Origin: an uncultured Pelagibacteraceae bacterium
GTDB taxonomy: Bacteria; Pseudomonadota; Alphaproteobacteria; Pelagibacterales; Pelagibacteraceae
Length of the DNA stretch: 64,000 nucleotides
Assembly (NCBI GenBank): GCA_902611465.1
Contig: CACLZS010000001.1
Span: forward strand, 72,636-136,635
Direction: 5' to 3'
Below the pieces are notes generated by a model that was given only the letters and a program-made list of their open reading frames with translations, was not told the origin of the DNA and did no database searches. Numbering within the stretch: the stretch's first letter is position 1; every line of letters begins with the position of its first letter. The position numbers were made by a program, and so were the translations under genes. Shown here piece by piece: positions 18,638 through 38,916 of this stretch.

Positions 18638-18692
18638 GAGTTTCTATATTGAAAAAACACAAATATGTCTTATTTTGAAATTAATAAATTAT

Positions 18693-18875
18693 ATGCAATT
18701 TACAAAAAATACAAGTAAAGACAAAATTTTTAGCTTAGGGACAATTTTAAAAATTATAATTGCAATTTTCATAATTGTATTTGGCATTATTATGATTAAC
18801 CAGATTAATTTGCCCGCTCCAGACAAACAAATTGAAAAAATTCTACCAAATGAAAATTTCAAAACAATTAAGTAA
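18693..18875 (+). CDS. small single-pass membrane protein
   Basis: 60 aa from ATG 18693 with one hydrophobic helix then PAP...IEK; overlaps the next gene; the ORF-track start at 18573 lies inside aroK. Confidence 0.65.
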   Translation: MQFTKNTSKDKIFSLGTILKIIIAIFIIVFGIIMINQINLPAPDKQIEKILPNENFKTIK

Positions 18876-35266: not shown

Positions 35267-35301
35267 AGTTTAATATAATAAAGAAAGAGTAAAAAAAAAG
35301 T

Positions 35302-35514
35302 ATGAGTACATTAAAAGGAAAAGTAAAGTGGTTCAACGGTAAGAAGGGCTACGGTTTTATAGAAAGAGAAGACGGAGAAAAAGATTGTTTCGTTCATGCA
35401 AGCGCAGTTCGTGAAGCAGGACTTCGTTTTTTGAATGAGAACGACGCTGTAGAATTTGAAATTCAGGATGGAGACAAAGGTCCAAGCGCAGTGAATTTAA
35501 AGAAAACTTCTTAA
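35302..35514 (+). CDS. cspA: cold-shock protein
   Basis: GKVKWFN, KGYGFI (RNP1), FVHAS (RNP2), KGPSA. Confidence 0.95.
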
Positions 35515-35534
35515 AATTTATTTCATTTAAAATT

Positions 35535-35581
35535 TTGTATAGGAATAAAAGTAGGTAAACCCTATGAATATTCCTATACAA
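35535..35581. terminator. long inverted repeat downstream of csp gene (terminator or 3' stem)
   Basis: TTGTATAGGAATA/TATTCCTATACAA 13-bp stem plus inner GTAGG/CCTAT; no U-tract, so function is uncertain. Confidence 0.5.
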
Positions 35582-35622
35582 TACATACTTGCATTTTAAG
35601 TCTAAAATGCTATTCAACCTCC

Positions 35623-35697
35623 ATGATTAAAAATAGTAAAATTTTAGTATCTCACAAAAGACATCATTTTCATGCTGGCTTGCAGCTAGCTATTTAA
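35623..35697 (+). CDS. candidate histidine leader peptide (24 aa)
   Basis: MIKNSKILVSHKRHHFHAGLQLAI, 4 His in 7 codons, directly upstream of tRNA-His-hisS-hisZ-hisG; promoter-like TTGCAT-16 nt-TATTCA ends 6 nt before the ATG. Confidence 0.65.
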   Translation: MIKNSKILVSHKRHHFHAGLQLAI

Positions 35698-35745
35698 CTA
35701 TTTTAAAATTTAAATTTAACTCTAATTAGTATAAAATAATAATAG

Positions 35746-35820
35746 GCCCTGGTGGTGAAATGGTTATCACGAAAGTTTGTGGAACTTTAGTTTTTGGTTC
35801 AATTCCAAGCCAGGGTACCA
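35746..35820 (+). tRNA. tRNA-His(GTG), alphaproteobacterial G1:U72/A73 type
   Basis: GCCCTGG/CCAGGGT-A-CCA, AAAGT-TTGTGGA-ACTTT anticodon arm, TTCAATT T loop. Confidence 0.95.
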
Positions 35821-35824
35821 AAAA

Positions 35825-37219
35825 ATGAATAAAGAAAATAAATTAATACCTGGGTTGCCCTCAGGATTTGAAGATCGTTGGGATAAGAAACTTCTTCTCA
35901 AAAAAAAGCTGTTATCAGTAATTGAGAATAATTTTATTAAGTTTGGTGCTGAACCACTCGAAACACCATCGTTCGAAATCAGTGAAAATATAGGATCTTT
36001 TCTAGCAGAAGATGAAGCTAATCCTATGTCTGATGTATTTTTATTTAAAGATGGAGATAAAAATATTACCCTTAGATATGACCTATCTAGCCCTCTAGCA
36101 AGATTTGTTGCTCAAAATAATCAAGAGTTGCCTTCAATTTATAAAAGATATGCTATTCAAAATGTATTTCGTAACGAAAAGGCAGGCAATGGAAGATATA
36201 GAGAATTTTTGCAGGCAGATTTTGATATTGTAGGTAATGTTAGTTCATCACAAGCTAACGCTGAACTTTGTAATTTAATTTCAGCAACACTTTTAGAATG
36301 TGGATTAAAGAAAGATCAGTTTACGATCAATGTAAGTAACAGAAAAATAGTTCAAGGTTTACTAGATGAATTACAAATAACTGAGGAAAAACAATTAAAA
36401 GTTATTAGGGCAATTGATAAACTTGATAAGCCTGGATTTGGAATAAAAGGTGTAGAGGACCTTTTGAGAAAGGAAAGAAAAGACACTAGCGGTGCTATTA
36501 CAAAAGGTGCAGACTTAAATGATAAGCAGGTTTCTAAAATATTAGATTATTTAAAAATTAAAGATTTAAATGAACTGAAACAAAATTTAAAAAATTCACT
36601 ATCGCAAGAAGGAATCAAAGAATTAGAAGACTTTTTTGAAATCCTTAGATATGGATCAAACTTAGATAAAGTCAAAACCAACTTCACAATTGTCAGAGGC
36701 TTGGCGTATTATTCTGATTTCATCGTTGAAACTAATTTAAATTTTAAAGTTACAAATAATAAAGGTAAAGAGGTAGATATTGGGAGTATTTGTTCAGGTG
36801 GAGCCTATGCACAACTTATATCAAGATTTAAAGGAGTTGATATTCCAGGTACAGGTATAAGTTTTGGTGTAGATAGACTTTTGTTTGCATTAATGCAATT
36901 AGATCAGTTTCAATTAAACGAACAAAAACCAGTTTTAGTGTGTGTGATGGATCAAAAATATTTAAAAAACTACTACGAAATTTTAGATCTTTTAAGACAA
37001 AACAATATTAATTCAGAAATATTTTTAGATACCAAAAAAAATCTTGGTAAGCAGCTTACTTATGCAAACAAACGCCAATTACCAGTTGCAGTAATCTGTG
37101 GAGAAAATGAATTTAAAGATAATACAGTGACAATTAAAAATTTAAAGGGTGTAAAGGGTGAGAACAATAAAACAATTCCCAAGAAAGAATTAATAAATGA
37201 AGTCAAAAAACTTATCTGA
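35825..37219 (+). CDS. hisS: histidyl-tRNA synthetase
   Basis: LRYDL, FRNE, GRYREFLQADFD, IVRGLAYY, GISFGVDRL; start moved to ATG 35825 because the ORF-track start lies inside the tRNA. Confidence 0.96.
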   Translation: MNKENKLIPGLPSGFEDRWDKKLLLKKKLLSVIENNFIKFGAEPLETPSFEISENIGSFLAEDEANPMSDVFLFKDGDKNITLRYDLSSPLARFVAQNNQELPSIYKRYAIQNVFRNEKAGNGRYREFLQADFDIVGNVSSSQANAELCNLISATLLECGLKKDQFTINVSNRKIVQGLLDELQITEEKQLKVIRAIDKLDKPGFGIKGVEDLLRKERKDTSGAITKGADLNDKQVSKILDYLKIKDLNELKQNLKNSLSQEGIKELEDFFEILRYGSNLDKVKTNFTIVRGLAYYSDFIVETNLNFKVTNNKGKEVDIGSICSGGAYAQLISRFKGVDIPGTGISFGVDRLLFALMQLDQFQLNEQKPVLVCVMDQKYLKNYYEILDLLRQNNINSEIFLDTKKNLGKQLTYANKRQLPVAVICGENEFKDNTVTIKNLKGVKGENNKTIPKKELINEVKKLI

Positions 37220-38246
37220 AAATATACTTAAATCTTTAAAATCAAGTGGATTTGATTATATAGATTTAGATACAGTAATTCCAACCAATCTAATTCTCGA
37301 GAGATCTGGGGAATCATTTAGAAGTTTAATTTTTTCATTTATGGATCAGAATGGAAAGGAAATTTGTTTAAGACCTGACTTAACCATTGCCTCTTGTATC
37401 AAATATCTCAATCAAAAAAAAAAGAGTTATTCAAAAGTATATTATAATGGTCAAGCTTTCAGAAAAGTTCAGAAAAAAAATGACAAAATTATAAGAGATC
37501 AGATAGGTTTTGAGATCATAGGATCAAAAGATGAAAAGAGAGATGACAGGCAAATAATAAATACTGGTATTAAAGTTTTAAATAAATTTAGATATAAGTC
37601 TGGGAGTATAACAATTGGAAATGTAGAAATTTTTCATTTGTTGATAAACAAATTAGATATTCCAAAAAGGTGGAAACTTAGATTGCAAAGACATTTTTGG
37701 CGAGAGGCTTATTTTAATGAATTATTGAGACGACTAGAGACAAATTCAGATGTTGATGAAACTATCGTTGAGTTGGATAAAAAAAGATATTTTAAAATGT
37801 TTAAACAAAATCAAAACAGAAATATAGCAGGACGTTCCTTAAGAGAAATATTAATCAGATTTGATAATAAAATTAAAGATCCTAGAAGACAAATAAAAGG
37901 TCAAAATGTAGTAAAGATTATAAGGGAATACTTAAAAATAAACTGCAAAATGAGTAATGCAGCAACCATTCTTAATGCTTTTTTTAAAAAAAATAAAATT
38001 AATCTAACTGTTGGAAAAAATTATTTTCCAATCACAAAAGATAAGGTTTCAAAATTAAATGTAAATTTTTCATCTTCTTTTGGAAGACATTTAGAATATT
38101 ACACTGGGATGGTATTTAAAATTACGATAAATTCAAACTTTAGAAAAATTCAAGTTAATGGAGGTCGTTATGACAATCTTATTTCTGATTTAGGATCTTC
38201 AAAAAAAATCCCAGCAGTTGGAGGTGCAATAAGTTTAAATGATTAA
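37197..38246 (+). CDS. hisZ: ATP phosphoribosyltransferase regulatory subunit
   Basis: LRPDLT, QIGFE, YYTGMVF, GGRYD; between hisS and a short hisG. Confidence 0.92.
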   Translation: MKSKNLSENILKSLKSSGFDYIDLDTVIPTNLILERSGESFRSLIFSFMDQNGKEICLRPDLTIASCIKYLNQKKKSYSKVYYNGQAFRKVQKKNDKIIRDQIGFEIIGSKDEKRDDRQIINTGIKVLNKFRYKSGSITIGNVEIFHLLINKLDIPKRWKLRLQRHFWREAYFNELLRRLETNSDVDETIVELDKKRYFKMFKQNQNRNIAGRSLREILIRFDNKIKDPRRQIKGQNVVKIIREYLKINCKMSNAATILNAFFKKNKINLTVGKNYFPITKDKVSKLNVNFSSSFGRHLEYYTGMVFKITINSNFRKIQVNGGRYDNLISDLGSSKKIPAVGGAISLND

Positions 38247-38916
38247 AATTGGTATTCCAAGCAAGGGTCGATTAAGAAAGGATACCTTAAATATATTTAA
38301 AAGTAAAAAGCTCAAAATTCTATCAGAAAGAGGCGATAGGGATCTCTTTGGATATATTAAAGGAAATAAAAATATTAAAATTATTTATCTTCATGCGAGA
38401 GAGATTATAGAAAGATTGGGTGATGGATCTCTAGATATTGGTTTTTCAGGATATGATTTATTAAAAGAGGGTGAATTAAATATACAAAACAAAGTCACTA
38501 TTGCTAAAAAGCTAGAGTATGGACATGCAACTTTAGTATTAGCTGTGCCAGACGAGTGGATTGATATTCAGACACTAGCTGATTTAGAGGAAATTTCATT
38601 TGATTTTAAAGATAAAAAAAAAAGTAGAATGAGAGTTGCAACAAAATATCCAAATCTAACTAGAGAGTTTTTATTCTCAAAAGGTGTAACTCAATTTAAA
38701 TTAGTCCCCTCTCTTGGGGCAACAGAGGTATATCCATTTACTGGTTCATCAGAAATTTTATCAGATATAACTAGTACAGGTGAAACTTTACGTGCGAATA
38801 ATTTAAGAGTCTTAAAAGATGGAAATATTCTTAAAAGTACTGCAATTTTAATGTTTAATAAAAAATTGAGTAACAAAAAAGGTTTGAAGAAAATTTTAAA
38901 CTTGCTTAGCTCTTAA
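38239..38916 (+). CDS. hisG: ATP phosphoribosyltransferase (short form)
   Basis: PSKGRL, VATKYP, GATE, DITSTGETLRANNL. Confidence 0.96.
   Translation: MIKIGIPSKGRLRKDTLNIFKSKKLKILSERGDRDLFGYIKGNKNIKIIYLHAREIIERLGDGSLDIGFSGYDLLKEGELNIQNKVTIAKKLEYGHATLVLAVPDEWIDIQTLADLEEISFDFKDKKKSRMRVATKYPNLTREFLFSKGVTQFKLVPSLGATEVYPFTGSSEILSDITSTGETLRANNLRVLKDGNILKSTAILMFNKKLSNKKGLKKILNLLSS

What the first reader, a model, noticed from the sequence alone, without database searches (positions are those of the whole stretch)
35589..38916. His-rich leader peptide upstream of tRNA-His-hisS-hisZ-hisG: an attenuator that includes its own tRNA
Seen: TTGCAT-16 nt-TATTCA (with TG extension) ends 6 nt before ATG 35623, suggesting a leaderless start. 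The ORF encodes MIKNSKILVSHKRHHFHAGLQLAI, with 4 His in 7 codons. A GC-rich hairpin, GCTGGC-TTGCA-GCTAGC (35674-35690), begins right after the last His codon and is followed by TATTT. Then come tRNA-His, hisS (4 nt after the CCA), hisZ and hisG. Established: His-codon leader peptides drive ribosome-mediated attenuation of his operons. Inference: a ribosome stalled on the His codons would mask the hairpin 5' arm with no separate antiterminator, co-regulating the tRNA, its synthetase and the committed biosynthetic step in one feedback loop. I do not recall a described attenuator with the cognate tRNA as first cistron, but could not search.
Basis: partly seen in the sequence, partly recalled or inferred. 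Interest (0 to 1): 0.72.

Follow-up and report, generated by a model that had tools for sequence, protein, structure and literature searches.

The report
Histidine-sensing leader before SAR11 tRNA-His operon
A tiny histidine-rich reading frame butting against an RNA hairpin sits in front of the only histidine tRNA gene found, its charging enzyme and the first histidine-synthesis enzyme of this SAR11 ocean bacterium and its relatives; it is likely a ribosome-based histidine sensor simpler than the textbook one, though the tRNA probably also has a promoter of its own.

Summary
Observation confirmed and not chance. A short ATG frame with 1-6 His codons, usually 30-37 nt behind a TTG (-35), precedes hisS in 117 of 117 SAR11-type loci examined and 80 of 80 further Pelagibacteraceae loci. 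His codons are frame-specific (195 vs 11 and 23) and swap CAT/CAC. In the family, one His codon abuts a hairpin whose variation keeps pairing. So a His-tRNA-sensing leader is very likely (about 85%). The proposed mechanism is only partly supported: the U-tail is weak or absent in many lineages, no conserved antiterminator was found, and the stop codon lies in or beside the hairpin, so any ribosome masks it and dwell time must be the signal. I favour Rho-dependent attenuation (inferred, untested). The claim that it gates its own tRNA is weakened: a second promoter-like element with fixed spacing sits just before the tRNA, and a sister family keeps the leader without the tRNA. No Rfam/Pfam match; not found in 9 paper searches. 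This scan found the same element before on other SAR11 DNA.

The parts
35302..35514 (+). cold-shock protein gene (CspA family) upstream; not part of the element
   Evidence: Csp models match below their cut-offs; absent before the leader in several relatives
35535..35581 (+). strong hairpin at the 3' end of cspA, without a U-tract on this strand
   Evidence: region z -5.85; tail AATACATA
35589..35616 (+). P1, predicted leader promoter: TTGCAT -16 nt- (TGC)TATTCA; predicted start at or next to the ATG
   Evidence: TTG 30-37 nt before the leader ATG in 112 of 117 loci; TA-rich box 22-27 nt after TTG; start site not measured
35623..35697 (+). His leader ORF, 24 codons; His codons at 35653, 35662, 35665, 35671
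35650..35673 (+). His cluster, C-rich and G-poor; candidate Rho loading site (inferred)
   Evidence: across 95 distinct leaders the last 21 nt to the key His are 29% C, 9% G
35674..35690 (+). conserved hairpin abutting the key His codon; predicted pause or 3'-end element
35691..35745 (+). unstructured, G-depleted spacer between hairpin and tRNA
   Evidence: G 1.4%, C 8%; fold z mean +0.75, 0 of 78 below -2
35709..35737 (+). P2, promoter-like bipartite element: TTTAAA -17 nt- TAAAAT, overlapping TAGTAT 35727-35732
   Evidence: TANNATAA in 77 of 78 distinct spacers, no TTG 21-25 nt before it; T-rich half fixed in register in 67 of 77
35746..35820 (+). tRNA-His(GTG), A73 type; only copy found in the 80%-complete genome
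35825..37219 (+). hisS, histidyl-tRNA synthetase; ATG 4 nt after CCA
37197..38246 (+). hisZ, ATP phosphoribosyltransferase regulatory subunit
38239..38916 (+). hisG (short form), ATP phosphoribosyltransferase

Best explanation
The frame at 35623-35697 is a conserved histidine-codon leader that likely works as a ribosome dwell-time sensor of charged tRNA-His and would gate read-through into tRNA-His-hisS-hisZ-hisG, probably through Rho. Shown: the ORF, the frame-specific His codons, the key His codon fixed at the hairpin's 5' edge, the stop in or just behind the hairpin, the C-over-G unstructured RNA, the gene order, and a rho gene. Inferred: (1) transcription from P1 starts at the AUG and a 70S ribosome loads at once; (2) with histidine plentiful the ribosome finishes and leaves within about 25 codons, the hairpin refolds and may hold RNA polymerase, and Rho loads on the bared His cluster and spacer and ends the transcript before or in the tRNA; (3) with charged tRNA-His scarce the ribosome lingers on the His codons, covers that RNA, melts the hairpin when the last His codon is in the A site, and polymerase reads on; (4) a weak second promoter P2 just before the tRNA likely gives a basal supply of the essential tRNA and synthetase, so the leader adds a starvation boost rather than acting as the sole gate; (5) tRNA excision would release a hisS mRNA with a leader of at most 4 nt. 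My odds: His sensing of some kind 0.85; this Rho-type version 0.5; P2 active about 0.55.
For: Leader in 117 of 117 loci (107 of family f1 in 12 genera, the window's own included; 10 of sister family f2) and 80 of 80 named Pelagibacteraceae loci. His in the 7 codons before the key His: 195 in frame, 11 and 23 in the other frames, 10.6 expected; CAT/CAC interchange at every His position (key His 76/19) (95 distinct sequences). Unbiased best hairpin has a His codon ending 0-2 nt from its edge in 97 of 107; control codons 11 of 1454. Stem 100% paired in 20 and 10 distinct rows; 18 of 140 cells are G-U wobbles and none a mismatch, which points to a + strand RNA helix; 2 cells with double changes. 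Peptide length (19-38 aa in f1, 11 in f2) and residues after the His vary; stops move into the loop in L210 and L239, so the product matters little. For Rho: weak U-tails, C-rich U-free tail in f2, spacer G 1.4% against 7% in the P1 spacer, no G at all in 48% of post-hairpin 40-mers against 5% of AT-rich genome 40-mers, rho in 5 of 5 genomes; uORF-shielded Rut sites are a known design (tnaC, speFL, cruR; PMC12360218 passages). RNA-library contigs bridge leader, tRNA and hisS (X1 35392-36034; X3 35296-35843).
Against: No histidine response, start site, 3' end or ribosome footprint was measured. The stretch behind the stop is short (42-69 nt in all f1 loci but one), below the 70-80 nt usually quoted for Rho (recalled), unless the ORF itself serves. 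One large lineage has only 2 His codons (37 of 117; one locus has 1) and a U-rich tail (7 of 9 nt) that could terminate intrinsically. U-less hairpins also end cspA in the window's lineage and three other genera, so lack of U is not special to the leader. G-depletion could partly reflect P2. In L184 (1 of 80) a 1-nt deletion takes the key His out of frame. The contig bridges may come from cspA read-through or DNA and show no single transcript. Kin are not independent, so counts overstate.
Confidence: 0.5

Rival explanations
1. One reading: the hairpin with its AU tail is a weak intrinsic terminator. Polymerase pauses at the tail; a replete ribosome finishes and leaves, letting the hairpin close, while a ribosome held on the last His codon keeps the 5' arm melted.
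For: Key His fixed at the hairpin edge; its distance to the end of the tail (about 30 nt) suits a closely coupled ribosome (geometry recalled); U-rich tails in the 2-His lineage; SAR11-type 3' hairpins often lack long U runs.
Against: Median -7.7 kcal/mol against -14 for cspA hairpins; 16 of 66 with 6 or more U; tails such as CAATAGAA in other genera; 0-1 U in f2. Stalling on the upstream His codons would leave the hairpin free and give the wrong sign.
Confidence: 0.22
2. Control is after transcription: the stalled ribosome shields the 5' end of the precursor from RNase J or RNase E, or changes tRNA processing, so more tRNA and hisS-hisZ-hisG message survives.
For: RNase J-family gene in 4 of 5 genomes (not found in the 80%-complete own genome); AU-rich unstructured spacer; hisS ATG 3-7 nt after CCA in 102 of 107 and 4 nt in 80 of 80 loci ties its translation to tRNA processing.
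Against: tRNA excision would cut the leader off the hisS message, ending any protection; f2 has the leader and hairpin with no tRNA behind it.
Confidence: 0.1
3. The ORF is a small independent gene (a His-rich peptide or small RNA with its own 3' hairpin), and P2 alone drives tRNA-His-hisS-hisZ-hisG regardless of histidine.
For: P2 is conserved in register and lies where other tRNA promoters of this genome lie (TTG 37-41 nt before several tRNAs); tRNA-His precedes hisS with no leader in L153 and L156.
Against: The peptide shares little but His across genera and varies from 11 to 38 aa; it stays in front of hisS when the tRNA is elsewhere (f2) and when cspA is absent; His codons directly before histidine genes would be a coincidence; P2 has no TTG in 77 of 77.
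Confidence: 0.13

Closest known systems
his operon leader hisL of E. coli and Salmonella (Rfam His_leader; accession RF00514 from earlier scan notes and recall)
   Same: [quoted passage not shown]
   Different: No Rfam or Pfam match; 1-6 scattered His rather than a run of seven (recalled); one small hairpin, no conserved antiterminator, no strong U-tract; apparently leaderless; first downstream gene is tRNA-His, then hisS.
uORF-dependent Rho attenuators tnaC, speFL, cruR
   Same: A ribosome held on a short ORF shields a Rut site next to or inside the ORF (PMC12360218 passages); here C-over-G unstructured RNA lies in and behind the ORF and rho is present.
   Different: Those stall through the nascent peptide and a small ligand; here the signal would be hungry His codons and the peptide is not conserved. 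Rho dependence is not shown here.
His leader peptides before hisS* and hisZ in bacilli (Naville and Gautheret 2010, PMC2965389)
   Same: His-codon ORFs before hisS-family genes, predicted attenuators (passages).
   Different: Found through intrinsic terminators, in Firmicutes; no tRNA gene mentioned in the passages read.
uORFC-8-2, Cys leader before cysS in Rhodobacterales (Brewer et al. 2021, PMC8632094)
   Same: Alphaproteobacterial leader ORF with cognate codons before an aminoacyl-tRNA synthetase (section read).
   Different: Two stems and a U-run intrinsic terminator; cysteine; no tRNA.
Leaderless polycysteine sORF attenuators of mycobacteria (bioRxiv 10.1101/834739)
   Same: Leaderless short ORF that senses a charged tRNA and controls the operon behind it (passages).
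   Different: Works by hiding the next gene's SD in a long duplex; here the next cistron is a tRNA and the structure is one 17-nt hairpin.

Membership tests
hisL-type classical attenuator | leader ORF enriched in His codons, conserved at codon level | tested here: met
hisL-type classical attenuator | located before histidine biosynthesis genes | tested here: met
   hisZ and hisG follow in 75 of 80 loci, hisZ alone in 5 loci shorter than the full flank
hisL-type classical attenuator | match to the Rfam or Pfam leader family | tested here: not met
   (8 relatives, only tRNAs)
hisL-type classical attenuator | mutually exclusive antiterminator and terminator helices | tested here: not met
   hairpin probability above 0.7 in 74 of 78; with the 5' arm masked the 3' arm pairs at median 0.35; a competing upstream helix only in L059, L065, L066
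hisL-type classical attenuator | intrinsic terminator: stable stem plus U-tract | tested here: not met
   (none found in window); 16 of 66 with 6 or more U, median -7.7 kcal/mol; one lineage is borderline
hisL-type classical attenuator | read-through rises on histidine limitation | not testable with these tools
   needs cultures or reporters
uORF-dependent Rho attenuator | C-over-G unstructured RNA in or next to the uORF | tested here: met
uORF-dependent Rho attenuator | rho gene in the genome | tested here: met
   5 of 5 genomes over the TIGR00767 cut-off
uORF-dependent Rho attenuator | enough ribosome-free RNA for Rho loading | tested here: inconclusive
   42-69 nt behind the stop (89 in L102), 106-206 nt from ATG to tRNA; the length needed is recalled
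uORF-dependent Rho attenuator | termination depends on Rho | not testable with these tools
   needs bicyclomycin or in vitro transcription
leaderless sORF attenuator (mycobacterial type) | transcript starts at the AUG | tested here: inconclusive
   promoter spacing fits, no SD in 117; only contigs, no raw reads, were available
leaderless sORF attenuator (mycobacterial type) | sORF pairs with the SD of the next gene | tested here: not met
   next cistron is a tRNA; the window fold shows no such duplex

The most novel reading that the evidence does not exclude
SAR11 runs a minimal, leaderless, single-hairpin histidine attenuator that sets the supply of its only tRNA-His, and tRNA excision then releases a near-leaderless hisS-hisZ-hisG message, so one ribosome sensor controls tRNA, synthetase and the committed biosynthetic step, with P2 silent or minor.
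Probability: 0.3. Interest if true: 0.75.

Novelty: new variant of a known kind. Interest (0 to 1): 0.52.

Why it matters
SAR11 has streamlined genomes with little known regulation; an amino-acid attenuator kept across the order in about 120 nt would add a control layer that one published screen could not see, because it removed tRNA-containing intergenic regions (PMC2704228, Table 1 legend). It would be a compact test case for attenuation by ribosome dwell time without an antiterminator, and, if P1 read-through matters for the tRNA, a rare case of a tRNA gene under a leader that reads that same tRNA. The ratio of leader to read-through RNA could report histidine or nitrogen status of wild cells. 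The principle (cognate codons in a leader before synthetase and biosynthesis genes) is long known, which caps the surprise.

Tried and rejected
Rfam and Pfam: nothing for the leader. Wider class: of 28 new hisS-like loci from other alphaproteobacterial genomes (35 of 121 genomes matched) I read 27 (one from an unpublished genome left out); none had a comparable His cluster with TTG spacing and hairpin by eye; only ATG starts within 450 nt were listed, so this is 'not found with this query'. Other leader peptides in the own genome: no convincing second case among 189 candidates (crude masking, 80% complete). An AU-rich second stem in the spacer: 0 of 78 with z below -2; rejected. Spacer motif CCAC pairing with the anticodon loop, or a DnaA box: present in 34 of 78 distinct spacers, mostly one genus, absent from the window, and by eye not covarying with the loop in L102, L105, L110; rejected as part of the mechanism. 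Correlation of U-tails between cspA and leader hairpins: weak (rho 0.23, n 87, kin not independent); not used. RNA data: only contigs were served, so no starts, ends, strand or levels; a control gap between divergent genes (18641-18702) was uncovered in 4 of 4 runs, but depth there is low and a hole proves nothing. Covariation is thin: no double changes in A2, shuffles uninformative there; 5 of 500 shuffles reach the score in A3; rows were chosen by stem class after a joint alignment came out gappy. A viral-contig pattern scan did not run, so phage copies are unexamined. Three papers could not be read: Wang et al. 2007 on SAR11-type tRNA-His, a 2004 comparative survey of attenuators in proteobacteria, and Turnbough 2019; I recall that comparative surveys of 2004 and 2010 list candidate attenuators before hisS, unverified here.
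Full report
Observation. The closest named relatives are Pelagibacteraceae, SAR11. On its own the hairpin is weak (-8.2 kcal/mol) and not above shuffles. The tRNA-His is the only one ARAGORN finds in the 80%-complete genome.

Conservation. I collected hisS loci from related genomes: 119 loci, of which two were dropped because the contig ended; these cover well under half of the 238 matching genomes, plus 10 genomes of a sister family. All 117 carry a short ATG frame with His codons (1 His: 1; 2: 37; 3: 35; 4: 34; 5: 8; 6: 2), and 112 have TTG 30-37 nt before the ATG (the ORF was picked by TTG spacing first, then by His count). None has an SD-like word before the ATG. Eighty further named loci, mostly close kin and possibly overlapping the first set, all have it. 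Selection acts on His codons: 195 in frame against 11 and 23 out of frame, with CAT and CAC interchanged (95 distinct sequences), while peptide length and flanking residues change freely. One locus, L184, has a 1-nt deletion that puts the key His out of frame.

Hairpin. In all 107 family loci a hairpin of at least -5.3 kcal/mol abuts a His codon (anchored on His, so partly circular). An unbiased search gives the same in 97 of 107, against 11 of 1454 control codons. Stems are 100% paired; changes are G-U wobbles valid on the + strand RNA plus two double changes. The hairpin dominates the fold in 74 of 78 leaders and no conserved competing helix appears when its 5' arm is masked. The stop codon begins 6 nt (52 loci), 18 nt (16) or 21 nt (39) after the key His, that is in the loop or just behind the stem. 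A ribosome that runs through therefore covers the hairpin too; what differs with histidine can only be how long it stays.

What stops transcription. The tail is a poor U-tract: 16 of 66 distinct leaders have 6 or more U in 8 nt, against 41 of 80 cspA hairpins, which are also about twice as stable. Several genera have 2-3 U and the sister family has 0-1 U and a C run. The His cluster is 29% C, 9% G; the next 40 nt have 1.4% G and do not fold. Rho is present in 5 of 5 genomes. This fits uORF-shielded Rho termination as described for tnaC, speFL and cruR (PMC12360218, passages), so I rank it first, as inference. Against it: the post-stop stretch is short, one lineage has a U-rich tail, and U-less hairpins also end cspA in the window's lineage.

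Is the tRNA gated? Any P1 transcript that reaches hisS must pass through the tRNA, and RNA-library contigs of two studies bridge the region, which shows no single transcript. But the spacer holds a bipartite element, TTTWAA then TANNATAA, whose inner spacing is fixed (67 of 77 in register, at most 21 at any shift; pattern derived from the same data) while its distance to the hairpin varies from 23 to 44 nt. It lacks TTG in all 77, so it may be weak or not a promoter. In the sister family the leader lies directly before hisS; in L141 and L147 tRNA-His sits about 1.4 kb upstream behind an opposite-strand gene. In two other alphaproteobacteria tRNA-His precedes hisS without a leader. The leader thus tracks hisS-hisZ-hisG, and the tRNA is likely a partial passenger. 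hisS starts 3-7 nt after CCA in 102 of 107 loci and 4 nt in 80 of 80, so its translation probably follows tRNA excision (inference).

What is known. No Rfam or Pfam family matches. Nine full-text searches returned no description of this element or of a leader-peptide attenuator before a tRNA gene; most subscription papers are outside the library and I opened no supplements. Seen as passages: PMC2965389, PMC4117421 (leader peptides and leaderless mRNAs are common in Caulobacter), PMC2704228, PMC3937112 (SAR11 tRNA-His with A73 and no G-1), bioRxiv 834739, PMC12360218, PMC4833913; PMC8632094 as passages and one section. Ribosome geometry, Rho length needs and alphaproteobacterial -10 boxes without the last T are recalled. 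This scan reported the same element on other SAR11 DNA at least five times, and His leaders before tRNA-His in CPR bacteria; these notes were read after my conservation test and are not counted as evidence.

Verdict. A real, order-wide His-codon leader with an abutting hairpin: works like hisL, is not a member of that family by structure, and is best filed as a new variant of ribosome-mediated amino-acid attenuation. Function untested; Rho-type mechanism 0.5; full gating of the tRNA 0.3. Interest 0.52.

Noticed in passing
L031-L120, tRNA-His genes: tRNA-His is unusually divergent within one genus (30 distinct sequences in 107 loci), some with non-standard T-loops that ARAGORN misses at default score; leader class and tRNA type occur in mixed combinations, hinting at swaps of tRNA or hisS behind a retained leader. 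No tree was built.
   Followed up: partly
window 35591-35610: Perfect 8-bp inverted repeat across the P1 spacer; kept only in some relatives. Possibly a by-product of the promoter boxes, possibly an operator.
   Followed up: partly
window 35535-35581: The strong cspA 3' hairpin has no U-tract in this lineage and in genera g5, g7, g9, but has one in others; RNA-library contigs run across it, so cspA may read through into the leader.
   Followed up: partly
L077, L092, L098, L100, L102 (after CCA): A few lineages insert 16-29 nt, some with a small hairpin, between CCA and the hisS ATG.
   Followed up: no
L059, L065, L066 leader: An upstream segment can pair with the hairpin's 5' arm and outcompetes the hairpin in folding; not seen in other lineages.
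   Followed up: partly
L102, upstream of tRNA-His: About 38 extra nt with a hairpin between the P2-like element and the tRNA.
   Followed up: no
G000 tRNA-Leu, -Arg, -Val, -Lys, -Pro, -Met: Several other tRNA genes have an ATG 1-7 nt after their 3' end; whether these open genes was not checked.
   Followed up: no
many g1 spacers, e.g. L038, L103: A CCAC motif 20-30 nt before the tRNA in 34 of 78 distinct spacers, absent in the window; unexplained.
   Followed up: partly
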